From NCBI GenBank assembly GCA_964016885.1, contig OZ024742.1:149792001-149856000 (forward strand): a stretch of 64,000 nucleotides of DNA, given 5' to 3'. Of the stretch, positions 12,127 through 60,493 are shown one piece after another. The stretch comes from Eledone cirrhosa (taxonomy: Eukaryota). Numbering within the stretch: the stretch's first letter is position 1; every line of letters starts with the position of its first letter. Position numbers and translations under genes: made by a program. Below the pieces are notes generated by a model. It did not search any database. It was not told the DNA's origin and saw nothing but the letters and a program-made list of their open reading frames with translations.

Positions 12127-14170
12127 ATCATCATCATCATCATCATCGTTTAACGTCCGTGTTCCACGCTTGCATGGGTTTGGACGGGAGTTTTCCCACT
12201 TGAGGCAAGAGTGGTTATCTTGCTCGCATAGGACTATCTGGCGGGTTTTCTACAGCTGGATGCCCTTCCTAACACCAACCACATTTACAGTGTGGGGCTG
12301 GGAGGTTTTTACCATGTTGATTGCACGGCCACATTACAGCGTGAACTGTGTGTTTTTTTTACATGACACCTACACGATCTCATTTGTTTCGGCCTGGATG
12401 TTGTGGCACCAACATAACTTTACATTGAAAGGGGCGGTGTGGATGGGGTGGGGGTAGTGGGACGGGGTGTATTTTGTTAGAGATGCCTACTGACTGTAGT
12501 AGGTTTTACTTTGTATTTAGGTAAGGCGGGTCTTCTCTATTACTGAGTGCCGCCAAAGGTCTCGGTCCAGTGACATTGTCTTGGTGAGGTGTAAGTGTGT
12601 GAGGTCGGAATTTATCAGCTCGTCCCAGGTTTTTCTGGGTCTGCCTATTCCGTGACTACCGTCTATCTTTATTGCCCTGCACTTTGTTATACAGCTATCG
12701 TCCTTCATGCGCATCACGTGACCATACCAACGTAGCCTTCTCTCGAGTAAACAACATCTGATCCCTCTTATTTCTAATTTTTTCCTTAGTTTGTTTATGC
12801 TTTGCCGTTCACGTATATTACTATTACACATCCAGCGGAGCATGCAAGCTTCGTTTCTCTCTAGTCTGCGTATATCCTCTGCACACAATGCCCAGGTCTC
12901 ACTGCCATGCAACATTGCTGTTCGTATGCAGGCATCGTACAACCTGCCTTTCATTTTTAGGGAGAACCCTTTAGCGGCTAATAGTGGTATGAGCTCTCTG
13001 AACTTTTTCCACCCAGTTCTGACTCTAGCTACTGTACTTTCAGAGCACCCTCCCCCACTGCTGATTTTGTCACCCAGGTAACGGAAGCTGTCCACTATTT
13101 CTATAGAACCCTCTGCGCAGTCGAAAGAGCTAGTAATTTTTGGGCACTTGCTGCTACTTATTGCCCCAGAACACCGGCCACATGTAAAATCTATGTTCTT
13201 AGTTAGCTTACCTGTGATCCCACTACATCTTTTATGCACCCAAACTTTGCATTTGGGACACAAAATGGAGTTTCTACCTACGCCTTTCCTACACTCTGAG
13301 CATGGCCACTTCCCGGAGGGGACTGCTGCCTTATTTTCTTTCTTACAAACTAGAACTTTAGTCTTAGCCAGGTTAATTTTAAGGCCTTTTGATTCTAGGC
13401 CGTGCTTCCATGTTTGGAATTTCTTCTCTAGCTCGGCCATTGATTCAGCTATGAGCGTTAGATCATCTGCGTATAGGAGTTCCCATGGGCAGCTGGTCTT
13501 GAACTCCACTGTTATAGCCTGGAGGGCAATAATAAATAGTAGGGGGCTAAGAACAGAGCCCTGATGAACACCAACTTTTACACTAAACTCTTCACTATAT
13601 TCGTGGTTAATTCTAACCTTGCTGACTGTTTCTTTATACATGGCTTGTATAGCTCTCACAAGCCATTCATCAACACCTAGTTTTCTAAGAGCCCACCAGA
13701 TAATGGAACGGGGGACTCTGTCGAAGGCTTTCTCCAAGTCCACGAAAGCTAAGTATAGGAGTTTACTTTTAGCTAGGTACTTCTCCTGTAGTTGTCGTAC
13801 AATGAAAAGAGCGTCTGTGGTACTTTTTCCTGACACAAACCCAAACTGCATTTCATCTAGATCAATTCGCTCTCTGATTAGTTGCGCTATTACTTTTTCC
13901 GTGACCTTCATGACCTGGTCGATTAATTTAATGCCTCTATAGTTACTCCTATCTAGGGCATCTCCTTTACCCTTATAACAGTTAACGATGATGCTGCTAC
14001 GCCAGTCCTTCGGAACAGCCCCATTCTGTATGACATGGTTGATTATCCGGGTGACCATGGTGTGTCCCACCGTACCAGATGCCTTCAGCATCTCGGCAAC
14101 TATTTCCAAAGGCCCAGCCGCCTTACCCGTCTTCATATCTTTGATTGCCTTACTTATTACACCCCCGTCC
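12127..14170 (-). mobile_element. 5'-truncated RTE-clade LINE, family B (variant Y), left arm of head-to-head dimer 1
   Basis: Open RT ORF plus ~390-bp 3' UTR ending in (GAT)n at ~12127. Confidence 0.9.
12517..14170 (-). CDS. Partial RTE ORF (RT + internal PHD finger + C-terminal domain); no true start
   Basis: [73 protein letters not shown]. The first residues of the listed 557-aa ORF come from the inverted UTR arm. Confidence 0.85.
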
Positions 14171-14489
14171 AACACCCCCACCCCATACACACCGCCCCCT
14201 TCTATGTAAAGTTATGTTGGTGCCACACCATCCAGGCTGAAACAATGAGATCGTGTAGGTGTCACGACAAAAAAAATACACAGTCCACGCTGTAATGTGG
14301 CCGTGTAGGCAACATAAAGTAAAAACCTCCCAGACCCACACTGTAAATGTGGTTGGTGTTAGGAAGGGCATCCAACTATAGAAAACCTGCCAGACAGTCC
14401 TATGCGAGCAAGACAATCACTCTTGCCTCAAGTGGGAAAACCCATGCAAGCGTGGAACACGGACGTTAAACGTTGATGATGATGATGAT
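14158..14489 (+). mobile_element. RTE family B 3' UTR only (variant X), right arm of head-to-head dimer 1
   Basis: Reverse-complement match to ~12127-12470, ending ggacgttaaacgttgatgatgatg. Confidence 0.9.
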
Positions 14490-14677: not shown

Positions 14678-17600
14678 ATCTGAAAATATTGAAGAGATAA
14701 GACACTTTGCCATTCTTCTCTGCTAAAATGTACCACTGAGCTGATTCAAATTTTCCCAGCCAGCCATCCACCTAATCTACGAAGGTATTTTAGCCTACAT
14801 ATTGTCGTTAATATTATGATGTTCCCTGCTGTATTAGCGTTAAATTTTCCCTGCTGTATTAGCGATAAATTTTCGAGGGTTTCTCTTAGTAGCTTTTTCA
14901 TGTCGTTAATATTATGATGTTCCCTGCTGTATTAGCGTTAAATTTTCCCTGCTGTATTAGCGATAAATTTTCGAGGGTTTCTCTTAGTAGCTTTTTCATG
15001 TCGTTAATATTATGATGTTCCCTGCTGTATTAGCGTTAAATTTTCCCTGCTGTATTAGCGATAAATTTTCGAGGGTTTCTCTTAGTAGCTTTTTCATGTC
15101 GTTATTATTGTTAATTTTACTGATGTAGTATTAACTTATTAACTTGGATATTTACCATGCGGTATTCTAATCCTATTGTATCTCTCTCAGTTATTTACCA
15201 TGCGACCCTCAGTTCCTACCCCCCCCCCCCTCTATGCACTTCTTTAAGGCTTACTACCCTGTCTTTAACCTAATTCATTCAATCTGAAAATATTGAAGAG
15301 ATAAGACACTTTGCCATTCTTCTCTGCTAAAATGTACCACTGAGCTGATTCAAATTTTCCCAGCCAGCCATCCACCTAATCTACGAAGGTATTTTAGCCT
15401 ACATATTGTCGTTAATATTATGATGTTCCCTGCTGTATTAGCGTTAAATTTTCCCTGCTGTATTAGCGATAAATTTTCGAGGGTTTCTCTTAGTAGCTTT
15501 TTCATGTCGTTAATATTATGATGTTCCCTGCTGTATTAGCGTTAAATTTTCCCTGCTGTATTAGCGATAAATTTTCGAGGGTTTCTCTTAGTAGCTTTTT
15601 TCATGACGTTATTATTGTTAATTTTACTGATGTAGTATTAACTTATTAACTTGGATATTTACCATGCGGTATTCTAATCCTATTGTATCTCTCTCAGTTA
15701 TTTACCATGCGACCCTCAGTTCCTACCCCCCCCCCCTCTATGCACTTCTTTAAGGCTTACTACCCTGTCTTTAACCTAATTCATTCAATCTGAAAATATT
15801 GAAGAGATAAGACACTTTGCCATTCTTCTCTGCTAAAATGTACCACTGAGCTGATTCAAATTTTCCCAGCCAGCCATCCACCTAATCTACGAAGGTATTT
15901 TAGCCTACATATTGTCGTTAATATTATGATGTTCCCTGCTGTATTAGCGTTAAATTTTCCCTGCTGTATTAGCGATAAATTTTCGAGGGTTTCTCTTAGT
16001 AGCTTTTTCATGTCGTTAATATTATGATGTTCCCTGCTGTATTAGCGTTAAATTTTCCCTGCTGTATTAGCGATAAATTTTCGAGGGTTTCTCTTAGTAG
16101 CTTTTTCATGTCGTTAATATTATGATGTTCCCTGCTGTATTAGCGTTAAATTTTCCCTGCTGTATTAGCGATAAATTTTCGAGGGTTTCTCTTAGTAGCT
16201 TTTTTCATGACGTTATTATTGTTAATTTTACTGATGTAGTATTAACTTATTAACTTGGATATTTACCATGCGGTATTCTAATCCTATTGTATCTCTCTCA
16301 GTTATTTACCATGCGCCCCTCAGTTCCTACCCCCCCCCCCCCTCTATGCACTTCTTTAAGGCTTACTACCCTGTCTTTAACCTAATTCATTCAATCTGAA
16401 AATATTGAAGAGATAAGACACTTTGCCATTCTTCTCTGCTAAAATGTACCACTGAGCTGATTCAAATTTTCCCAGCCAGCCATCCACCTAATCTACGAAG
16501 GTATTTTAGCCTACATATTGTCGTTAATATTATGATGTTCCCTGCTGTATTAGCGTTAAATTTTCCCTGCTGTATTAGCGATAAATTTTCGAGGGTTTCT
16601 CTTAGTAGCTTTTTCATGTCGTTAATATTATGATGTTCCCTGCTGTATTAGCGTTAAATTTTCCCTGCTGTATTAGCGATAAATTTTCGAGGGTTTCTCT
16701 TAGTAGCTTTTTCATGTCGTTAATATTATGATGTTCCCTGCTGTATTAGCGTTAAATTTTCCCTGCTGTATTAGCGATAAATTTTCGAGGGTTTCTCTTA
16801 GTAGCTTTTTTCATGACGTTATTATTGTTAATTTTACTGATGTAGTATTAACTTATTAACTTGGATATTTACCATGCGGTATTCTAATCCTATTGTATCT
16901 CTCTCAGTTATTTACCATGCGACCCTCAGTTCCTACCCCCCCCCCCCCTCTATGCACTTCTTTAAGGCTTACTACCCTGTCTTTAACCTAATTCATTCAA
17001 TCTGAAAATATTGAAGAGATAAGACACTTTGCCATTCTTCTCTGCTAAAATGTACCACTGAGCTGATTCAAATTTTCCCAGCCAGCCATCCACCTAATCT
17101 ACGAAGGTATTTTAGCCTACATATTGTCGTTAATATTATGATGTTCCCTGCTGTATTAGCGTTAAATTTTCCCTGCTGTATTAGCGATAAATTTTCGAGG
17201 GTTTCTCTTAGTAGCTTTTTCATGTCGTTAATATTATGATGTTCCCTGCTGTATTAGCGTTAAATTTTCCCTGCTGTATTAGCGATAAATTTTCGAGGGT
17301 TTCTCTTAGTAGCTTTTTCATGTCGTTAATATTATGATGTTCCCTGCTGTATTAGCGTTAAATTTTCCCTGCTGTATTAGCGATAAATTTTCGAGGGTTT
17401 CTCTTAGTAGCTTTTTTCATGACGTTATTATTGTTAATTTTACTGATGTAGTATTAACTTATTAACTTGGATATTTACCATGCGGTATTCTAATCCTATT
17501 GTATCTCTCTCAGTTATTTACCATGCGACCCTCAGTTCCTACCCCCCCCTCTATGCACTTCTTTAAGGCTTACTACCCTGTCTTTAACCTAATTCATTCA

Positions 17601-18697
17601 ATCTGAAAATATTGAAGAGATAAGACACTTTGCCATTCTTCTCTGCTAAAATGTACCACTGAGCTGATTCAAATTTTCCCAGCCAGCCATCCACCTAATC
17701 TACGAAGGTATTTTAGCCTACATATTGTCGTTAATATTATGATGTTCCCTGCTGTATTAGCGTTAAATTTTCCCTGCTGTATTAGCGATAAATTTTCGAG
17801 GGTTTCTCTTAGTAGCTTTTTCATGTCGTTAATATTATGATGTTCCCTGCTGTATTAGCGTTAAATTTTCCCTGCTGTATTAGCGATAAATTTTCGAGGG
17901 TTTCTCTTAGTAGCTTTTTCATGTCGTTAATATTATGATGTTCCCTGCTGTATTAGCGTTAAATTTTCCCTGCTGTATTAGCGATAAATTTTCGAGGGTT
18001 TCTCTTAGTAGCTTTTTTCATGACGTTATTATTGTTAATTTTACTGATGTAGTATTAACTTATTAACTTGGATATTTACCATGCGGTATTCTAATCCTAT
18101 TGTATCTCTCTCAGTTATTTACCATGCGACCCTCAGTTCCTACCCCCCCCCCCCCTCTATGCACTTCTTTAAGGCTTACTACCCTGTCTTTAACCTAATT
18201 CATTCAATCTGAAAATATTGAAGAGATAAGACACTTTGCCATTCTTCTCTGCTAAAATGTACCACTGAGCTGATTCAAATTTTCCCAGCCAGCCATCCAC
18301 CTAATCTACGAAGGTATTTTAGCCTACATATTGTCGTTAATATTATGATGTTCCCTGCTGTATTAGCGTTAAATTTTCCCTGCTGTATTAGCGATAAATT
18401 TTCGAGGGTTTCTCTTAGTAGCTTTTTCATGTCGTTAATATTATGATGTTCCCTGCTGTATTAGCGTTAAATTTTCCCTGCTGTATTAGCGATAAATTTT
18501 CGAGGGTTTCTCTTAGTAGCTTTTTCATGTCGTTAATATTATGATGTTCCCTGCTGTATTAGCGTTAAATTTTCCCTGCTGTATTAGCGATAAATTTTCG
18601 AGGGTTTCTCTTAGTAGCTTTTTTCATGACGTTATTATTGTTAATTTTACTGATGTAGTATTAACTTGGATATTTACCATGCGACCCTCAGTTCCTA
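14678..18697 (+). repeat. Hierarchical tandem array: ~600-bp monomers containing 98-bp subrepeats containing a 25-bp duplication
   Basis: Monomer starts (atctgaaaatattg) at 14678, 15282, 15788, 16394, 17000, 17601, 18207. Monomer 2 has two rather than three 98-bp subunits; others differ mainly in homopolymer lengths. Confidence 0.95.
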
Positions 18698-18942
18698 CCT
18701 CACAATTTCCCTCCCCCCCACCCCCACACACCACCATAGTCTATTCGACCAATCAAACCTAGCATGCCATTTCCACTGCTGCTGCTGCTACTACCTGCCT
18801 AACTAACTCTCTCCTCCTCTGGCGCATCCCAACACACCCTGCCATTACCCCACCACCACTGTCCTTCTAGCCCTCAATTTTCCCACCGTTAGGGATGGAT
18901 GAGCTGGGAATACACGAGCAACTCTGAATCAATAGATGAAAT

Positions 18943-21900
18943 ATGAATCTGCGAGCTACCAAGCACCCACGTGAAGCGCCAACCCAGAGACCCTCCCCTA
19001 CGAGTGTCGACAAATGCCCAAAACTCCGAGTTGGTACCATCAATGTAGGCTCAATGAAAGGAAGAGCAGGAGAAATCGTAGAAATGCTAGAGCGAAAGGA
19101 AGTTGATGTATGCTGTGTGCAAGAGACTAGATGGAGAGGAGGGTCTGCTAGAGTCCTTGTAGGAAAAAGCCAGTGCTACAAATTTTTCTGGGTGGGAAAT
19201 GACGATGGGATGGGTGGTGTAGGTATACTATTAGCTGACAAGTGGGTAGATAAAGTAATCTCAGTGTACAGGGTAAATGCAAGAATCATTAAACTCAGAC
19301 TAGTCCTGAATAAGACAATTACCACAATAATATCAGCTTACGCACCCCAATCGGGGCTGCCAGACGAACTTAAGGATAGGTTTTACGAGTCCCTAATACA
19401 CACTACTGCTCTAACAGACGACAAGGACTTCCTAATCATTGCAGGAGATTTTAACGGACACGTAGGTAAACACTGCGACGGCTTCAATAGAGTACATGGA
19501 GGCCATGGAGTTGGCACAAGGAATGAGGAAGGATTCAGACTTCTAGAATTCTGCGACGCCAATGACATGTCGATATGTAACACAAACTTTAAAAAACCCG
19601 ACAACCACCTGATCACCTATAGATCAGGGGAGCACTCTAGTCAGTTAGATTTTATCCTCATCAGAGGACGTGACAGATGGACGGTCGTAAACACAAAAGC
19701 CTTCCCTAGTGAGGAATGTACATCCCAACATAGCTTAGTTGTCAGCGACCTCACGGTCAGAACTAGACGAGCCCTGAAACAGAGGCCAACCTGGAGAAGA
19801 AAGATCTGGAAGCTGAAAGTCCCCTCAACCAGTAACAGATTTAAAGATATTTTACTCAACGCCTACGACAGTAAAGAAGAACAGATAGAGACATTTAACG
19901 TAGAAGAGAACTGGGAGTTCCTAAAAAATAACTTACTAGAGGCGACGGATGAGGTTTGTGGCTGGAGTAAGACCTCAAGCAGGAGGAGAGTGACTTGGTG
20001 GTGGAACAATAAGGTAGATGAAGCAGTCAAGGCCAAGAGACAGGCATGGAAAGAATGGAAGAACGGGGGGAGCAGGGTACATTACATAGAGACCAAGAGG
20101 GAAGCTAGGCGACAAGTATACTTAGCTAGGAGGGAAGCAGAGGATAGAAAATTCAAGCATGTTTTACAACGTGAGGACCAGAAACAGGAGGTATTCAAGA
20201 TTGCGAGGCAGTGTGTCAGAGATAGTTGTGATGTCATTGGAGAGAAGTGTATCCGGAATGATAAAGGTGAGCTTGCCCTCACAAGTGCTGAGAAGAAAGA
20301 TGCATGGAAGAGTCATTATGATAGATTACTAAATGAGGAGAATGCATGGGAAGAAGAGACCCTACCCCACGTAGACCCTATAGAGGGACCAGCAGTACAA
20401 GTCAGCGGCAGCGTAGTAAGTAAGGCAATCAGAGATATGAAGATAGGGAAGGCAACCGGTCCATCGGGTATAGCTGCCGAGATGCTGAAGGCATCTGGGT
20501 CTGTAGGTCACACTATAACCACACGTATCGTTAACCAGGTAATACTAGAGGGGGCCATACCAAAAGATTGGTGCAGTAGCATCATTGTCAACTGCTACAA
20601 AGGTAAAGGCGATGCACTAGATAGAGGAAACTATAGAGGTATAAAGTTGATGGACCAGGTCATGAAAGTAACAGAAAGAGTTATAGCACAGCTGATTAGG
20701 GACCGGGTGAATATAGACGAGATGCAATTTGGGTTTGTACCAGGGAAAGGCACCACTGATGCGCTCTTCCTTGTGAGGCAATTACAGGAAAAGTACCTAG
20801 CTAAAAGTAAGCCACTCTACTTGGCATTTGTCGACCTTGAGAAAGCCTTTGACAGAGTTCCACGTGCAGTAATCTGGTGGGCTCTTAGAAAACTAGGAGT
20901 AGATGAATGGCTTGTGAAAGCGGTACAAGCCATGTATAGGGGAGCAGTCAGCAAAGTTAGGATTGGCAATGAGTATAGCGAGGAATTTAGCGTACAGGTT
21001 GGGGTCCACCAGGGCTCTGTTCTTAGCCCTCTCCTGTTCATCATAGTCCTGCAGGCAATAACGGAGGAGTTTAAGACCGGATGCCCATGGGAACTCCTGT
21101 ATGCTGATGACCTCGCACTCATAGCTGAATCTATGGTAGAACTAGAGAATAAATTCCAAACCTGGAAGCAGGGACTAGAGAGAAAGGGCCTCAAAGTCAA
21201 CATGACAAAGACTAAGGTCCTTATAAGTAGACGAGAAAACAGAACCCAGATCCCCTCAGGGAAATGGCCTTGCTCAGTATGTAGGAAAGGTGTAGGTAGG
21301 AACTCCATTCTTTGCCCCAAATGCAAACAATGGGTACACAAGAGATGTAGCGGGATCTCAGGAAGCTTAATTAAGAATGTAGGATTCACATGCAGCAGCT
21401 GTGCTGAAACAGCAAGCAAACAGCCACAGGAAACAAGTACCACCAATCTCTGGGAGGGCCCTGTAGAAACAGTAGACAGCTTCTGCTACCTAGGTGACCG
21501 AATTAGCAACGGAGGTGGGTGCTCAGAAAGTACAATAACTAGGGTAAGAACGGGATGGAAGAAGTTTAGGGAACTACTACCACTGCTAGCTGCAAAAGGC
21601 TTCTCCCTCAGAATGAAAGGCAGACTGTATGATGCGTGTATCCGAACAGCGATGTTGCATGGTAGTGAGACCTGGGCGCTGAAGGTGGAAGACTTACGTA
21701 GATTAGAGAGAAACGAAGCCTGCATGCTCCGATGGATGTGTAACAGTAATATACGTGAACGACAAAGCATAAATGAATTGAGAGAGAGACTGAGCATAAG
21801 AGGAATCAAATGCTGCGTGCAGGAGAGGCGGTTACGCTGGTATGGACATGTGATGCGTATGAAGGATGACAGCTGCATAAAAAGGTGCAGAGCACTAGAA

Positions 21901-22062
21901 GTTGATGGAAACCGCGGAGTGGGGAGACCCAAGATGACTTGGGATGAGGTGATAAAAGCCGACCTTACCCAACTACACCTCTCAAAGTCAATGACACACG
22001 ACCGTGACTTCTGGCGTCACGCAGTAATACAGGGTACCCGACCTCCCATGGGTACATGCTGA
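18943..22062 (+). CDS. RTE-clade LINE protein: APE endonuclease + reverse transcriptase with inserted PHD finger
   Basis: GTINVGSM, CCVQETRW, AYAPQ, AGDFNGH, SQLDFIL, SQH (APE); NYRGIKL, DLEKAFD, QGSVLSP, YADD, FCYLG (RT); C4HC3 at 21271-21402; no stops or frameshifts. Confidence 0.95.
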   Translation: MNLRATKHPREAPTQRPSPTSVDKCPKLRVGTINVGSMKGRAGEIVEMLERKEVDVCCVQETRWRGGSARVLVGKSQCYKFFWVGNDDGMGGVGILLADKWVDKVISVYRVNARIIKLRLVLNKTITTIISAYAPQSGLPDELKDRFYESLIHTTALTDDKDFLIIAGDFNGHVGKHCDGFNRVHGGHGVGTRNEEGFRLLEFCDANDMSICNTNFKKPDNHLITYRSGEHSSQLDFILIRGRDRWTVVNTKAFPSEECTSQHSLVVSDLTVRTRRALKQRPTWRRKIWKLKVPSTSNRFKDILLNAYDSKEEQIETFNVEENWEFLKNNLLEATDEVCGWSKTSSRRRVTWWWNNKVDEAVKAKRQAWKEWKNGGSRVHYIETKREARRQVYLARREAEDRKFKHVLQREDQKQEVFKIARQCVRDSCDVIGEKCIRNDKGELALTSAEKKDAWKSHYDRLLNEENAWEEETLPHVDPIEGPAVQVSGSVVSKAIRDMKIGKATGPSGIAAEMLKASGSVGHTITTRIVNQVILEGAIPKDWCSSIIVNCYKGKGDALDRGNYRGIKLMDQVMKVTERVIAQLIRDRVNIDEMQFGFVPGKGTTDALFLVRQLQEKYLAKSKPLYLAFVDLEKAFDRVPRAVIWWALRKLGVDEWLVKAVQAMYRGAVSKVRIGNEYSEEFSVQVGVHQGSVLSPLLFIIVLQAITEEFKTGCPWELLYADDLALIAESMVELENKFQTWKQGLERKGLKVNMTKTKVLISRRENRTQIPSGKWPCSVCRKGVGRNSILCPKCKQWVHKRCSGISGSLIKNVGFTCSSCAETASKQPQETSTTNLWEGPVETVDSFCYLGDRISNGGGCSESTITRVRTGWKKFRELLPLLAAKGFSLRMKGRLYDACIRTAMLHGSETWALKVEDLRRLERNEACMLRWMCNSNIRERQSINELRERLSIRGIKCCVQERRLRWYGHVMRMKDDSCIKRCRALEVDGNRGVGRPKMTWDEVIKADLTQLHLSKSMTHDRDFWRHAVIQGTRPPMGTC

Positions 22063-22937: not shown

Positions 22938-23151
22938 AGGCATGTGGCTGAGTGGTTAGAGAACTGGATTCACAATCGTGAGATTGTCAGTTCAATTCCT
23001 GGACCAGGCGATGCGTTATGTCCTTGAGCAAGACACTTTATTTCACGTTGCTCCTTCTACCTGGAGTTGCGACTGATAGATTAGCAATTGGAAAGACCAA
23101 CGGAAACATTGTTTCTTTGGTCCTGAATTTGACGAAAGTCGATCGACTAAG
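22938..23151 (+). mobile_element. tRNA-CORE SINE (different subfamily and tail)
   Basis: TGGCTGAGTGG A box, AGTTCAATTCC B box, tccttgagcaagacactttatttcac CORE start; tail resembles 147-210. Confidence 0.7.
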
Positions 23152-23169
23152 ATATATATATATATATAT

Positions 23170-23232
<63 letters not shown>

Positions 23233-23295
23233 CACATATATATATATATACACATATATATATATATATATATATACACATACACATATATATAT

Positions 23296-23334
<39 letters not shown>

Positions 23335-23369
23335 TATATATATATACACATACACATATATATATATAT

Positions 23370-23448
<79 letters not shown>

Positions 23449-23465
23449 TATATACATATATATAT

Positions 23466-26138
23466 ACACAAAAGCCTTCCCTAGTGAGGAATGTACATCC
23501 CAACATAGCTTAGTTGTCAGCGACCTCACGGTCAGAACTAGACGAGCCCTGAAACAGAGGCCAACCTGGAGAAGAAAGATCTGGAAGCTGAAAGTCCCCT
23601 CAACCAGTAACAGATTTAAAGATATTTTACTCAACGCCTACGACAGTAAAGAAGAACAGATAGAGACATTTAACGTAGAAGAGAACTGGGAGTTCCTAAA
23701 AAATAACTTACTAGAGGTGACGGATGAGGTTTGTGGCTGGAGTAAGACCTCAAGCAGGAGGAGAGTGACTTGGTGGTGGAACAATAAGGTAGATGAAGCA
23801 GTCAAGGCCAAGAGACAGGCATGGAAAGAATGGAAGAACGGGGGGAGCAGGGTACATTACATAGAGACCAAGAGGGAAGCTAGGCGACAAGTATACTTAG
23901 CTAGGAGGGAAGCAGAGGATAGAAAATTCAAGCATGTTTTACAACGTGAGGACCAGAAACAGGAGGTATTCAAGATTGCGAGGCAGTGTGTCAGAGATAG
24001 TTGTGATGTCATTGGAGAGAAGTGTATCCGGAATGATAAAGGTGAGCTTGCCCTCACAAGTGCTGAGAAGAAAGATGCATGGAAGAGTCATTATGATAGA
24101 TTACTAAATGAGGAGAATGCATGGGAAGAAGAGACCCTACCCCACGTAGACCCTATAGAGGGACCAGCAGTACAAGTCAGCGGCAGCGTAGTAAGTAAGG
24201 CAATCAGAGATATGAAGATAGGGAAGGCAACCGGTCCATCGGGTATAGCTGCCGAGATGCTGAAGGCATCTGTGTCTGTAGGTCACACTATAACCACACG
24301 TATCGTTAACCAGGTAATACTAGAGGGGGCCATACCAAAAGATTGGTGCAGTAGCATCATTGTCAACTGCTACAAAGGTAAAGGCGATGCACTAGATAGA
24401 GGAAACTATAGAGGTATAAAGTTGATGGACCAGGTCATGAAAGTAACAGAAAGAGTTATAGCACAACTGATTAGGGACCGGGTGAATATAGACGAGATGC
24501 AATTTGGGTTTGTACCAGGGAAAGGCACCACTGATGCGCTCTTCCTTGTGAGGCAATTACAGGAAAAGTACCTAGCTAAAAGTAAGCCACTCTACTTGGC
24601 ATTTGTCGACCTTGAGAAAGCCTTTGACAGAGTTCCACGTGCAGTAATCTGGTGGGCTCTTAGAAAACTAGGAGTAGATGAATGGCTTGTGAAAGCGGTA
24701 CAAGCCATGTATAGGGGAGCAGTCAGCAAAGTTAGGATTGGCAATGAGTATAGCGAGGAATTTAGCGTACAGGTTGGGGTCCACCAGGGCTCTATTCTTA
24801 GCCCTCTCCTGTTCATCATAGTCCTGCAGGCAATAACGGAGGAGTTTAAGACCGGATGCCCATGGGAACTCCTGTATGCTGATGACCTCGCACTCATAGC
24901 TGAATCTATGGTAGAACTAGAGAATAAATTCCAAACCTGGAAGCAGGGACTAGAGAGAAAGGGCCTCAAAGTCGACATGACAAAGACTAAGGTCCTTATA
25001 AGTAGACGAGAAAACAGAACCCAGATCCCCTCAGGGAAATGGCCTTGCTCAGTATGTAGGAAAGGTGTAGGTAGGAACTCCATTCTTTGCCCCAAATGCA
25101 AACAATGGGTACACAAGAGATGTAGCGGGATCTCAGGAAGCTTAATTAAGAATGTAGGATTCACATGCAGCAGCTGTGCTGAAACAGCAAGCAAACAGCC
25201 ACAGGAAACAAGTACCACCAATCTCTGGGAGGGCCCTGTAGAAACAGTAGACAGCTTCTGCTACCTAGGTGACCGAATTAGCAACGGAGGTGGGTGCTCA
25301 GAAAGTACAATAACTAGGGTAAGAACGGGATGGAAGAAGTTTAGGGAACTACTACCACTGCTAGCTGCAAAAGGCTTCTCCCTCAGAATGAAAGGCAGAC
25401 TGTATGATGCGTGTATCCGAACAGCGATGTTGCATGGTAGTGAGACCTGGGCGCTGAAGGTGGAAGACCTACGTAGATTAGAGAGAAACGAAGCCTGCAT
25501 GCTCCGATGGATGTGTAACAGTAATATACGTGAACGACAAAGCATAAATGAATTGAGAGAGAGACTGAGCATAAGAGGAATCAAATGCTGCGTGCAGGAG
25601 AGGCGGTTACGCTGGTATGGACATGTGATGCGTATGAAGGATGACAGCTGCATAAAAAGGTGCAGAGCACTAGAAGTTGATGGAAACCGCGGAGTGGGGA
25701 GACCCAAGATGACTTGGGATGAGGTGATAAAAGCCGACCTTACCCAACTACACCTCTCAAAGTCAATGACACACGACCGTGACTTCTGGCGTCACGCAGT
25801 AATACAGGGTACCCGACCTCCCATGGGTACATGCTGAAGCATATAAACAATATGCCCCCCCCCCCACCGCAAGGTGGTCGTGGAGGTGCCACGGCAAAAA
25901 AGCACCCAGCCCACACTGTAAAGTGGACGTGTAGGCGCCACGAAAAAGCACCCAGCACTCACTGTAAATGAGGTTGGTGTTAGGAAGGGCATCCAGCTGT
26001 AGAAATCAAGCCAGATCAGTTCCTGTATGAGCAAGGCATGGTCAGCCGACCAGACACTGCCCACAACAGGACAACCCGTCTAACCCATGCTAGCGTGGAA
26101 GAACGGACGTAAAACGGTGATGATGATGATGATGATGA
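23466..26138 (+). mobile_element. 5'-truncated copy of RTE family A
   Basis: Matches 19690-22360 with only about six substitutions that I could see; begins at acacaaaagccttcc (end of APE domain); ORF open to 25837; (GAT)n tail. Confidence 0.95.
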
Positions 26139-40293: not shown

Positions 40294-40347
40294 TGTAAGT
40301 ATGCACGTATACGTACATACATATATGTATACAGACGTACAGTAGCA

Positions 40348-40393
<46 letters not shown>

Positions 40394-40499
40394 CATACAG
40401 GTACACATATATATATGTACGTATCAGTTTAGCGAACGTTTATTATAACGCCCGCTTTGTCCATTTGTAAACAAGCTAAACTCATACATATATATATAT

Positions 40500-41356
40500 A
40501 CGCGAACTGGCTGCGATCAATTATTTGTCGGAGATTTCCCAGTTAGAAAATTTACTCTTAAAGCTTACTGGATTTGATTATGTATATGGTTAATTATGCT
40601 GATTAGAGGAAGAAATAGTATATATTTTAATATCTGATTGATTCTATAGACACGTTTTATGATATAATGCTCTGAGTTTTTGATTTTAACTTATTAATTC
40701 TTCATTAAGCTTAAAAGTGAACAGTTGCAACACATATATGTATCATTGATTTAATTTAATTTAATTTTATGTATGTGATAACCTCTATATTTAATAATCT
40801 CCCTATCGGTTGAGATTAAATTTGGCGATATATGGCTGCGCTCTCTAGCAGCATGCCTACCCGCCGTAAGCGACCAATCACACGCTTTCTCTCTGGCTGG
40901 TACACAGCTACATAGCGATCTTAGCCATTTTTGAATCTAAATTTGGCGGGGTCTGTCCGAGAAATTAAATGTCTATTTCTGAGTTTGTCTCCTGATGATA
41001 ATCCTGACTCAGGACAGTCCATATTATTTGGATGTCCTAAACAAGGAAGAAACCATGGTTGAGATATAATTACGGTATGTGCGCATTTCTTCTAAGTTTA
41101 ATTTTACTACTAATTATGTGCGGTTGACGATATGTTTGATCGGATTCTGCATGCTGCCGAAATGTTTGATAAATAATGGAACGGAGTTAACGCGAACTGG
41201 CTGCGATCAATTATTTGTCGGAGATTTCCCAGTTAGAAAATTTACTCTTAAAGCTTGCTGGATTTGATTATGTATATGGTTAATTATGCTGATTAGAGGA
41301 AGAAATAGTATATATTTTAATATCTGATTGATTCTATAGACACGTTTTATGATATA
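40500..41356 (+). mobile_element. Non-coding, terminally redundant element (690-bp unit + 167-bp repeat), retrozyme/Penelope-pLTR-like
   Basis: 40500-40666 equals 41190-41356 with one visible mismatch; both ends abut (TA)n; contains a hammerhead motif. Confidence 0.7.
40986..41066 (+). ncRNA. Type I hammerhead ribozyme with extended stem II and palindromic short stem III
   Basis: UGUCUC-CUGAUGA-(50-nt foldable insert)-GAAA-C-CAUG-G-UU-GAGAUA: all core nucleotides present, stem I UGUCUC/GAGAUA, NUH triplet GUU, predicted cleavage after 41060. Confidence 0.7.
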
Positions 41357-41451
41357 TATATATACATATACATATATACATATACATGTACATATACATA
41401 TATATATATACACATATATATATATATACATATATACATATATATATATAC

Positions 41452-41482
<31 letters not shown>

Positions 41483-41643
41483 CATATATACATATATATA
41501 TATACATATATATACACATACATATATACATATATACATATATATATATATACATATATACATATATATATATACATATATATATATACATATATATACA
41601 CATACATATATACATATATATATATACATATATATACACATAC

Positions 41644-41674
<31 letters not shown>

Positions 41675-41697
41675 TATATATATATACACATATATAT

Positions 41698-41738
<41 letters not shown>

Positions 41739-41987
41739 TATATATATACACATATATATACACACACACATATATATATATACACACACATATATATATA
41801 TATACACACACATATACACACACACACATATATATATATACACACATTTATACACACATATATATATATATATACGCACACATTTATACACACATATATA
41901 TATATACACACACATATATATATTTATACACACATATATATATACATATACATATACATATATATATACACACACACACATATATAT

Positions 41988-42028
<41 letters not shown>

Positions 42029-42059
42029 TATATATATATACACACACATATATATATAT

Positions 42060-42106
<47 letters not shown>

Positions 42107-42169
42107 TATATATATATACATATATACACACACACACATATATATATATACACACATATATATATATAT

Positions 42170-42212
<43 letters not shown>

Positions 42213-42314
42213 TATATATATATATACACACACACACATATATATATATATATACACACACATATATATATATACACATATATGTTATCTATACACATAT
42301 ATATATATATATAT
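41357..42314. repeat. Compound (TA)n/(CA)n microsatellite
   Basis: Direct reading. Confidence 0.95.
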
Positions 42315-58300: not shown

Positions 58301-58330
58301 ATTATATATAAATATAGTAAAATAAATATA

Positions 58331-59249
58331 ATGTAAGTATGTATACGTACATACATATATGTATACAGACGTACAGTAGTATGTATATATATACATACAT
58401 GCATGCACACATATATATATATGTAGGAATGGATTTACCGAAAATTTATTATAATGCTCGGTGTGTTTGTAAACAAACATCCCGAATTAAGCCGTACAGT
58501 GTTTAGCAACCATCGCTGCCCTTTTGTTCAACACTGACAAAGGAATGATGTACTAGTTTCAAGCTTATTAGCTATCGTCAGCACCATATACCTTCCTGCC
58601 AGATGATTGAACGTCTGAAAGTATTTACTTTCTTTATGCATATTAACAGCTGAGCAACCCAATTTGCATATCGAGTGAGTTAATCGGTGGGCGCACCGAA
58701 AACGATAAATGGAAAAAATGAAACAAAATTTCATTTCTCACTCTTAGTACGGCTGTTACTTAAATATAAGTATATATACGTACATACATATAAGTATGTA
58801 TACGTACATACATATATGTATACAGACGTACAGTAGTATGTATATATATATATATATACATACATGCACACATATATATATGTATGTATGGATTTACCGA
58901 ACATTTATTATAATGCTCGGTTTGTTTGTAAACAAGCATCCTGAATTAAGCCATACAGTGTTTAGCAACCATGTATGTATATATATACATACTACTGTAC
59001 GTCTGTATACATATATGTATGTACGTATACATACTTATATTATACATAATTTATATATAATAAATATTATAATTTATACTAACGATTTTATTTATTACAT
59101 ATTATTTACAGTTGCCATGTAGACAGGTCTGTCTGGAAATAGGGTTGGGGGTGCTCAGGGTATTACATGTTGAGAGTGGAGTTGGACATTATAATAAATG
59201 TTCGGTAAATCCATACATACATATATATATGTGTGCATGTATGTATAAG
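58331..59249. repeat. Rearranged dispersed repeat: direct copies ~58331-58513 and ~58790-58972, inverted pieces ~58973-59040 and ~59189-59249
   Basis: Shared taagtatgtatacgtacatacatatatgtatacagacgtacagtag...tttattataatgctcgg..gtaaacaa; related sequence at 40293-40484. Confidence 0.75.
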
Positions 59250-60493
59250 TTTGAGAACCTCTGCTCCAACACAACTAACTTTTTATGAAATTGATCTAGA
59301 GAGAGAGAGAGAGAGGGTGAGAGAGAGAGAGGGTGAGAGAGAGAGAGAGAGGGTGAGAGAGAGAGAGAGAGAGAGGGTGAGAGAGAGAGAGAGAGCTCTG
59401 GCTCCACATAACTCACTCTCAGCTGTGGGTGAATAGTTGGGTTGAGATAGGATCAAGTAGGGAAGGGTCAGTGAGAGAATAAAAACATGGGTTTGGAGCT
59501 GAAGAGAGAGCACAGGATACAGTAATGTTGTTGTTGTTGGAATTGGAGTGAAGTGGTGGTGGTGGTGGGGGGGGGGGAGTCAATCCAGAGAAGAGGGAGA
59601 GCAATATATAATGAGGCGGAGATGGTGATAGGGGAAAAAGCAGTGGTTGAGGGAGGGGGAAAGACAAAGAAGGAGAGAAAGCAAGAAGAGAGAGAAAATT
59701 ATTATGGTAGAGTGGGTTGAGAGCTGGGTGAGGAGAGTCTAGAGGCCTGGATCTTAGAGGTTATGAAATGGTATACTGGCATACAGAGAGAGAGAGAGAG
59801 AGAGAGAGAGGATGGGGAAGAAGTAATCGGAAATGGTGTTAATGGTGGGGTTGGAGAATGAGGGCAAATGAATTCGGAGAAAGGTGGAGAGAGTGGCATG
59901 CAAGTAGTAGTTAATGATTGTTGGTGATGGATGGAGGATGTGTCGGGTGTAATAATTAGTTGTTGAAGAGAGGAGGGGGTTCTGGAAGAGAGGTAGGTGG
60001 TAATTGGCAGAGGGAGAGGAGGTGGAGTGGAGTGGGGGTGGGGTTTGGTGGGGTGGATGTTGTCAATGATGGAGAAAGAAAATTTTGGTCAGAAAGACAT
60101 GTAAAATGTGTATTTGAAGACAGGATGCTAATAATGGTAGAATAGAACATTGGTGAAGATGGTGATGGAGATGTTGGTGGTGGTAGTGGCAGTAGTGAGA
60201 GCTTAATGTGAGAGCATTTGGAAGGAACTGTAAAATGGTTAGGATGTTGTTAGTGTTATAAGTCTTATGTTCTTTATATTTGAAATGTTAATGAAATACA
60301 AAAAAAAACAAAAAAAAAACAGTCAGAGGCTATTTAATTCCTTCTCTTCTATACCATCACCATTATTATCACCCCTCTATCATCATCATCATCACAATGA
60401 GCACCATCTCTATCCCCACCATCATCATCCTTATAATCCCATCACCATTATAACCAACATAACATCTTTACCATCATCATTATTAACATCATC

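What the first reader, a model, noticed from the sequence alone, without database searches (positions are those of the whole stretch)
40500..41356. Hammerhead-ribozyme-carrying, terminally redundant non-coding retroelement (retrozyme-like, ~690-nt unit)
Seen: a 690-bp unit plus a 167-bp near-perfect repeat of its start (1.24 units), with no meaningful ORF and (TA)n on both sides. Inside is a complete type I hammerhead core (40986-41066). Established: minimal type I hammerheads with short palindromic stem III occur in Penelope-like pseudo-LTRs and in metazoan retrozymes that form circular RNAs. Inference: a >1-unit insertion is what reverse transcription round a circular or multimeric RNA would leave. 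This may be a mobile self-cleaving RNA family, larger than the small metazoan retrozymes I know. A CCAAT box (40872) and two taaatttggcg motifs (40817, 40938) upstream of the ribozyme could form an internal promoter.
Basis: partly seen in the sequence, partly recalled or inferred. Interest (0 to 1): 0.85.

Follow-up and report, generated by a model that had tools for sequence, protein, structure and literature searches.

The report
Ribozyme retroelement family targeting microsatellites
This is one young copy of a large family of protein-free 690-base repeats that carry a predicted self-cutting RNA (hammerhead ribozyme), sit in (TA)n repeats across the genome, and are likely spread by the enzymes of Penelope-like retrotransposons, making it a new member of a known class (animal retrozymes).

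Summary
In detail: a 690-bp ORF-less unit plus a 167-bp repeat (166/167 identical), containing a type I hammerhead. It is not a singleton. The genome has 2,122 exact ribozyme-core matches (0 in the reversed control), in subfamilies about 65-99% alike, ranging from fragments to an array of at least 25 units. Copy ends look like Penelope-like (PLE) insertions. They sit in (TA)n and end at internal TATA-type sites. In 81 two-arm inverted insertions the arms never both end at the main site (0 seen, 15 expected). No copy examined serves as the pseudo-LTR of a PLE ORF. The best reading is a non-autonomous, PLE-mobilised non-LTR retrozyme. A circular RNA is plausible (about 55%) but not shown, because an uncleaved multimer would leave the same footprint. 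The ribozyme is not minimal: it has a long two-helix stem II and a likely 4-bp pseudoknot, and Rfam misses it. The window copy has one ribozyme with a near-private GUU cut site (family: GUC/GUA), so it is likely a dead-end daughter. The unit size lies within the published 51-972 bp range. An extra lead: (TC)n is expanded only at copy ends (11/32 versus 0/45 internal), suggesting the reverse transcriptase stutters at initiation.

The parts
40500..41189 (+). One full 690-bp unit; the register is set by this copy's 5' truncation, and relatives are circular permutations
41190..41356 (+). Second lap, unit positions 1-167, ending at the family's main 3' end (inferred reverse-transcription start site)
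   Evidence: 88 of 132 single-arm copies end here
40981..40984 (+). GAGT, 5' strand of a predicted 4-bp pseudoknot with 41007-41010
40986..40991 (+). Hammerhead stem I, 5' strand (pairs with 41061-41066)
   Evidence: 95% of cells paired, 3 of 5 pairs with double changes
40992..40998 (+). Hammerhead core CTGATGA
40999..41048 (+). Long stem II: helix IIa, internal loop carrying the pseudoknot strand ACTC (41007-41010), helix IIb, 7-9 nt loop
41049..41060 (+). GAAA core, palindromic stem III ACCATGGT, and H17 (T here; C or A in relatives); predicted cut after 41060
41061..41066 (+). Stem I, 3' strand
40662..40666 (+). Internal pass of the main end site (ATATA, unit 163-167)
40734..40743 (+). Alternative end site (CA/TA run, unit 235-244), used mainly by older subfamilies
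40782..40793 (+). Alternative 'tail' end site (CTCT-TATA, unit 283-294), used by the second arm of two-arm insertions
40817..40948 (+). Candidate internal promoter: TAAATTTGGCG at 40817 and 40938, CCAAT at 40874 (function untested; E2F/NF-Y likeness recalled, not from a call)
40488..40499 (.). Short (TA)n left flank, remains of the target
41357..42314 (.). Right (TA)n/(CA)n microsatellite array into which the 3' end runs

Best explanation
This is a 5'-truncated copy of a high-copy, protein-free 690-bp repeat family carrying a type I hammerhead motif, likely a non-autonomous element (non-LTR retrozyme) copied into (TA)n microsatellites by the reverse transcriptase and GIY-YIG endonuclease of autonomous Penelope-like elements. 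Shown in sequence: dispersed and tandem permuted copies, ends at internal dinucleotide runs, head-to-head inverted arms with unequal ends, read-through of the ribozyme cut site, and structured ribozyme helices. Inferred steps: (1) tandem loci are transcribed, possibly from the CCAAT/TTGGCG region. (2) The hammerhead cuts after unit position 561, probably as a dimer through its palindromic stem III, and monomers are ligated into circles (about 55%), or the uncut multimer is used directly. (3) A PLE enzyme nicks (TA)n on one or both strands. (4) Each nicked 3' end pairs with a short UAUA run inside the RNA, the main one at position 167 and a second 70-127 nt downstream (the PLE 'tail'). The reverse transcriptase copies upstream, often for more than one lap, sometimes stuttering at the start. 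(5) The cDNAs are joined at their far ends, giving single-arm or inverted two-arm insertions. The window copy (one ribozyme, GUU) would be a dead-end daughter.
For: Copy number: 135 matches from 40 scored of 2,090 candidates, 85-100% identical; 2,122 core matches versus 0 control; 79 exact matches to a subfamily 30-mer. Ends: 135 of 153 close arms run into a dinucleotide repeat; 88 of 132 single arms end at position 167. Of 86 adjacent opposite-strand arm pairs, 83 are joined at their 5' ends. Among 81 uncensored two-arm insertions, 0 have both arms at 167, 70 have exactly one and 11 have none; the permutation mean is 15.0 and 0 of 200,000 shuffles were as low. This matches the PLE rule of a tail at one end only (PMC8557442, Fig. 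2 legend) and two internal RT starts with both strands nicked and extended (PMC11167929). Autonomous RT + C-terminal GIY-YIG elements are abundant (10,596 candidates, 150 scored; domains). Two such families also end at two alternative AATATA sites in (TA)n. Template longer than a cut monomer: 86 of 94 arms pass the cut site, 42 of 101 exceed one unit, 12 of 101 span two cut sites. Ribozyme fold: 92% of cells paired versus 28-43% for slid controls, and 11 of 25 pairs with double changes. The dimer cofold is -58.0 versus 2 x -23.4 kcal/mol.
Against: There is no RNA or cleavage evidence of any kind. The partner PLE was not identified: no DNA homology was found between the unit profile and the PLE termini sampled (best E 0.43). 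The two (TA)n-targeting PLE families examined showed no hammerhead in my scans. RNAalifold and single-strand MFE folding recover stems IIa/IIb (MFE also stem I) but mispair the core. In young copies the core is not measurably more conserved than other low-polymorphism sites (3.2% versus 1.4% departures). The purified PLE PAc starts RT at sites not homologous to the target (PMC11167929), unlike the base-paired priming inferred here. In Xenopus only 1 of 9 predicted retrozyme dimers cleaved in vitro (bioRxiv 2026.07.22.740005).
Confidence: 0.85

Rival explanations
1. Same element and same PLE machinery, but no circle: the template is an uncleaved read-through transcript of a tandem master locus, and the ribozyme is dispensable for insertion. 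This is an alternative for step 2 of the best explanation, not for its identity.
For: [quoted passage not shown] Long arrays exist that could act as masters (at least 25 units). 86 of 94 arms read through the cut. The excess of 5' ends at 562-570 is no greater than at other TA runs.
Against: Successive laps within an arm share subfamily variants (244 shared minority alleles versus 145 differences over 10,890 sites), and only 10 of 133 lap differences recur across loci. Laps therefore seem to be regenerated from a single unit in each subfamily, as a circle would do. Characterised animal retrozymes do form circles (PMC7229834).
Confidence: 0.4
2. The unit is the pseudo-LTR of an autonomous PLE that I did not find, and copies are truncated solo or tandem pLTRs.
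For: PLE-type ribozyme (palindromic stem III; PMC6765202), PLE-type ends, and a few loci that abut PLE sequence (L101, L285/L343, L323). Only a small sample of the thousands of loci was read.
Against: All 42 arms longer than one unit run into another unit, not an ORF. At L101 the juxtaposition is a nested insertion: 24 of the 25 best copies of that PLE terminus lack the unit downstream. Of 194 profile-positive merged loci, 32 had PLE protein matches nearby in mixed orientation, mostly across microsatellite, and none of those checked had an ORF-then-unit layout (table, six read by eye).
Confidence: 0.08
3. It is a DNA-level satellite or minisatellite spread by extrachromosomal circles, unequal crossover or Helitron-like replication, with an incidental ribozyme relic.
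For: A long tandem array with alternating unit variants exists, which suggests DNA-level expansion at that locus.
Against: Polarised ends (fixed 3' ends, scattered 5' ends), head-to-head inversions and the 0-of-81 end rule are retrotransposition signatures. Ribozyme helices covary across subfamilies.
Confidence: 0.05

Closest known systems
Metazoan non-LTR retrozymes (Cervera and de la Pena 2020, PMC7229834; Li et al., bioRxiv 10.64898/2026.07.22.740005)
   Same: Protein-free tandem or dispersed repeat with one type I hammerhead per unit, low GC, monomers to long multimers, co-existing with PLEs.
   Different: The unit (about 650-710 bp) is longer than the 170-400 nt invertebrate examples, though inside the 51-972 bp vertebrate range. 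The ribozyme combines a palindromic, dimer-type stem III with a 50-nt stem II and a likely pseudoknot. Copies show frequent inverted arms, (TA)n targeting and fixed internal ends, which the parts of these papers I read do not describe. Expression and circles are untested here.
Penelope-like elements, Neptune/Nematis-type (RT + CX4CXXC linker + C-terminal GIY-YIG); non-autonomous PLEs such as MRC1 (PMC8557442)
   Same: 5' truncation, partial tandems, inverted 5' arm, tail at only one end, microsatellite targeting, type I hammerhead with palindromic stem III.
   Different: No ORF. The tail is 70-127 nt rather than 30-40 bp. No sequence homology was found to the termini of the autonomous families sampled here, whereas non-autonomous Chlamys elements generally share 3' ends with their partners.
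PAc Poseidon element in vitro (PMC11167929)
   Same: Two internal RT start sites explaining the tail; both strands nicked and extended; uncleaved RNA used.
   Different: PAc starts at sites not homologous to the target. Here, and in two autonomous families of this genome, the ends coincide with TA runs matching the flank.
Plant LTR retrozymes (PMC4918200, search listing only; description from the 2026 preprint)
   Same: Non-autonomous, hammerhead-bearing, similar 600-1000 nt size.
   Different: They use type III ribozymes in LTRs with PBS/PPT and 4-bp TSDs; this family is type I, permuted and LTR-less.

Membership tests
Non-LTR retrozyme | Type I hammerhead in each repeat unit | tested here: met
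   Core and helices. By sequence and covariation only; Rfam models miss it.
Non-LTR retrozyme | Head-to-tail tandem copies with at least two consecutive ribozyme-bearing units somewhere in the genome | tested here: met
   12 of 101 arms span two cut sites; array of at least 25 units. The window copy itself has only one ribozyme.
Non-LTR retrozyme | No protein coding capacity and no LTR organisation | tested here: met
   Longest stop-free frame 65 aa; permuted copies without fixed terminal repeats. PBS/PPT were not searched for.
Non-LTR retrozyme | Transcribed into linear and circular monomer RNA | not testable with these tools
   No RNA holder was listed; the three runs laid are contigs of unknown type from one sample.
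Non-LTR retrozyme | Self-cleavage as monomer or dimer | not testable with these tools
   Needs an in vitro assay. The indirect test (5' ends at the cut) was inconclusive.
Penelope-like element (structural signature) | 5' truncation, partial tandems and inverted 5' arm | tested here: met
Penelope-like element (structural signature) | Two alternative 3' ends, with the tail at only one end of the insertion | tested here: met
   0 of 81 two-arm insertions have both arms at 167. The tail is 70-127 nt, longer than the usual 30-40 bp.
Autonomous PLE or its pLTR | RT + GIY-YIG ORF flanked by this sequence | tested here: not met
   a sample of loci, not exhaustive
Non-autonomous PLE derivative | Sequence similarity to the 3' end of an autonomous partner | tested here: inconclusive
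   None found against about 6 sampled PLE families; thousands of PLE loci were not examined.
Minimal PLE-type hammerhead | Very short palindromic stem III implying dimer cleavage | tested here: met
   ACCATGGT; dimer cofold. The genome pattern searches required this palindrome, so its invariance in those hits is by selection; 10 of 789 cells depart in the sample chosen outside the ribozyme.
Minimal PLE-type hammerhead | Short stem II without tertiary contacts (definition recalled and from PMC7229834 passages) | tested here: not met
   50-nt two-helix stem II and a likely pseudoknot

The most novel reading that the evidence does not exclude
A Penelope-type reverse transcriptase copies a circular ribozyme RNA by pairing each nicked strand of a (TA)n target with a different short dinucleotide run on the same RNA, one start site per strand, and stutters at initiation like its relative telomerase, adding (TC)n/(TA)n repeats. 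The family would then both seek and seed microsatellites, and its thousands of insertions would be a genomic record of the unsolved PLE integration steps. It also carries a pseudoknotted, dimer-type hammerhead that Rfam misses.
Probability: 0.3. Interest if true: 0.72.

Novelty: new member of a known kind. Interest (0 to 1): 0.46.

Why it matters
The link between animal retrozymes and Penelope-like elements has rested on co-occurrence and phylogeny (PMC7229834 discussion; bioRxiv 2026.07.22.740005). This family adds insertion-structure evidence: inverted arms, two start sites and a strict one-tail rule (0 of 81). The tandem/inverted structures and microsatellite bias of PLEs are named as open problems in PMC8557442, and a short, young, ORF-less, high-copy RNA is a convenient substrate for testing them in the existing in vitro PLE assay. 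The end-only (TC)n expansion gives a testable route by which PLE enzymes could create microsatellites. The ribozyme architecture shows that standard models miss thousands of hammerheads in one genome. It is not a new class of element.

Tried and rejected
Rfam scans gave no ribozyme hit, only microsatellite-driven miRNA noise. The repeat finder on 38-44 kb was swamped by TA arrays. No RNA holder was listed. Three contig runs from one sample cover 29 of 30 bins of the unit with diverse variants but cannot show expression or circles. The L039/L101 relative next to a PLE ORF looked like a parent pLTR; rejected as a nested insertion. L069/L102, L323, L146 and L293 neighbours were judged chance or nested. 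5' ends clustering at the cut site: 8 versus 2.3 expected at 562-570 (P 0.002), but other TA runs show 3- to 7-fold excesses too; for non-TA junctions it is 5 versus 1.6 (P 0.023) and not the best window, so it is not counted as proof of in vivo cleavage. Symmetric snap-back junctions between arms were not evident (junction positions, read by eye). Pseudoknot covariation looked very strong by count (92 T-A, 43 C-G of 148), but the tree puts all C-G rows in one 19-row clade, so it is about one compensatory event (54 of 212 rows kept after removing near-copies). The lap-difference test for circle versus multimer leans to circle but is not decisive. The metagenome scan gave 14 pattern matches, none related to the family (best E 0.039). 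No covariance model was built. The earlier-findings look-up returned nothing. Lunse et al. 2016 (PMC5785218) was not held and not read. Literature searches turned up no description of this family or of PLE RT stuttering; the library lacks most subscription papers, and Repbase/Dfam were not searchable, so the family may already sit there under another name. Supplements of the bioRxiv preprint and of PMC8557442 were not seen and may list related families.

Full report
Observation. The window holds a 690-bp unit (40500-41189) followed by a repeat of its first 167 bp with one mismatch, no ORF over 65 aa, and no other copy in the window. Small corrections: CCAAT begins at 40874. The left flank is about 12 nt of TA preceded by a remnant of another repeat family. 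The cleavage triplet is GUU, found in 1 of 96 aligned close relatives, which have GUC (46) or GUA (49). Rfam reports no ribozyme. Positions below marked u are unit coordinates (u1 = 40500; predicted cut after u561).

A large family. The host is a 3.0-Gb, microsatellite-rich genome; I suspect a cephalopod from recall, untested. The unit gave 2,090 candidates, of which 40 were scored. The ribozyme core pattern has 2,122 exact matches and 0 in the reversed control. A 30-mer of the closest subfamily has 79 exact matches and another has 134 at up to one mismatch. Subfamilies range from about 65% to 99% identity. Forms run from fragments through 1-3 unit insertions to an array of at least 25 units of about 657 bp, 78-80% identical to the window unit and continuing past the stretch fetched. 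After merging overlaps, 327 fetched loci became 256; counts below are on that sample, not the genome, and loci chosen by best score or intact ribozyme are biased towards long copies.

Ends look like Penelope-like insertions. Arms have scattered 5' ends and a few fixed 3' ends, at u167, u235-244 and u287-294, each a short internal dinucleotide run. 135 of 153 close arms continue into a dinucleotide repeat, and 88 of 132 single-arm copies end at u167. Of 86 adjacent opposite-strand arm pairs, 83 are joined at their 5' ends. Among 81 such insertions (2 of 83 dropped because an arm touched the locus edge), none has both arms at u167, 70 have exactly one and 11 have none, against 15.0 expected (0 of 200,000 permutations). 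PLEs are described with 5' truncation, partial tandems, inverted 5' copies and a tail at only one end (PMC8557442, passages read). A purified PLE protein nicks and extends both strands and starts RT at two internal sites that bound the tail (PMC11167929, main text and part of Methods read). The genome is rich in such elements: 10,596 GIY-YIG candidates, 150 scored, with long RT frames of 938 and 1,289 aa and a CX4CXXC linker typical of Neptune/Nematis (no tree built). Two of these families also end at two alternative AATATA sites in (TA)n.

Not a solo pLTR, as far as sampled. A 67-71% relative sits just downstream of a PLE at L101, but 24 of the 25 best copies of that PLE terminus are not followed by it. 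Of 194 profile-positive merged loci, 32 had PLE protein matches nearby in mixed orientation; none of the six read by eye had an ORF-then-unit layout. All 42 of 101 arms longer than one unit run into another unit. No homology to sampled PLE termini was found, so the partner is unidentified. One lead: at L343 an arm ending at u172 is joined by a 4-nt microhomology, with no TA run, to the inverted terminus of the young L349 family. It is a single event and could be a later deletion.

The template. In a sample chosen by a marker downstream of the cut (101 arms in 80 merged loci, two duplicate arms of L092 dropped), 86 of 94 arms pass the cut site and 12 of 101 span two cut sites. A cut linear monomer primed at u167 could give only 296 nt, so the main template was a circle or an uncut multimer. 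Laps within an arm differ at 145 of 10,890 sites, share 244 minority alleles, and only 10 of 133 lap differences recur between loci. This leans towards regeneration from a single unit but does not decide. 5' ends are enriched just after the cut (8 versus 2.3), but an ATATA run lies there and other TA runs are enriched as much. Known animal retrozymes form circles (PMC7229834, passages and Discussion read), whereas PAc uses unprocessed RNA (PMC11167929). I put the circle at about 55%. The window copy has one ribozyme, so it cannot release a monomer by itself, and with GUU it is likely a dead end (weaker GUU cleavage is recalled knowledge).

The ribozyme. In 27 diverse copies (27 of 99 kept after removing near-copies), the named structure pairs in 92% of cells against 28-43% when slid, with double changes in 11 of 25 pairs across stems I, IIa, IIb and the pseudoknot. 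I derived that structure from these sequences, which favours it. The GAGY strand upstream of stem I complements RCTC in the stem II internal loop (92 T-A, 43 C-G and 2 T-G of 148 distinct motifs), but the tree shows about one compensatory event. Stem I-II pseudoknots are common in hammerheads of all three types (PMC3088659, passages read), and palindromic stem III with dimer cleavage is typical of PLEs (PMC6765202, passages read). I did not find the two combined with a long stem II in these searches. Against: folding programs mispair the core, and core conservation in young copies is not above background.

A lead on initiation. At the u283-294 site, (TC) is expanded to 3-21 repeats in 11 of 32 terminal passes and in 0 of 45 internal passes (Fisher P 1.9e-5), always between the element and the (TA)n. 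RT stuttering at initiation is the simplest reading. Selection of pre-existing compound (TC)n(TA)n targets is the rival and is not excluded. One search found nothing on this for PLEs.

Comparison and verdict. The family meets the sequence-testable features of non-LTR retrozymes and the structural signature of PLE insertions; expression, circles and cleavage are untested. A 2026 preprint (10.64898/2026.07.22.740005, parts 1-3 of 5 read, supplements not seen) argues that such retrozymes are non-autonomous PLE derivatives of 51-972 bp, so neither the class nor the size is new. What this family adds is clean insertion-structure evidence for PLE mobilisation, a ribozyme variant that Rfam misses, and a testable stuttering hypothesis. 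Verdict: new member of a known kind; confidence 0.85 in the identity; interest 0.46.

Noticed in passing
window 58330-59260, ribozyme on the minus strand about 58546-58591: A second, unrelated hammerhead-like motif (short stem II, palindromic CTAG stem III, GUA triplet) in a partly tandem/inverted repeat; the family hits 25 of 256 merged loci. Probably another PLE-type or retrozyme family.
   Followed up: partly
window 40308-40476: The left flank of the finding is an 81%-identical remnant of that second family's TA-rich end (low-complexity, filter off), so the element appears to be nested in an older element's tail.
   Followed up: partly
L193-L194 (G000:C1:92.986-93.004 Mb): Array of at least 25 units of a 79%-identical subfamily with an inverted arm at its left end and alternating unit variants, suggesting a retro-insertion later expanded at the DNA level.
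   Followed up: partly
L343:1620-4500: Direct junction between a retrozyme arm ending at unit 172 and the inverted terminus of a young PLE, with 4-nt microhomology; candidate partner lead.
   Followed up: partly
L349:481-4350: [quoted passage not shown]
   Followed up: partly
L068:266-658; L188-L191: Other hammerhead families with long stem II and palindromic stem III, with little or no detectable homology to this unit and no adjacent PLE ORF; the genome appears to hold several such clans.
   Followed up: no
L101:5819-6265: The pLTR of an autonomous PLE family carries repeated TTGGCGC and CCAAT motifs, the same motif pair as the retrozyme's candidate promoter; similarity is too short to be significant.
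   Followed up: no
window 18940-22060 (+), 22982-25835 (+), 12519-14211 (-): Long open frames that look like non-LTR (RTE-type, recalled) retrotransposon ORFs, apparently two near-identical tandem copies.
   Followed up: no
window 14803-18639: Higher-order tandem repeat: a 98-bp unit containing 25-bp subunits, recurring in blocks at roughly 500-610 bp spacing.
   Followed up: no
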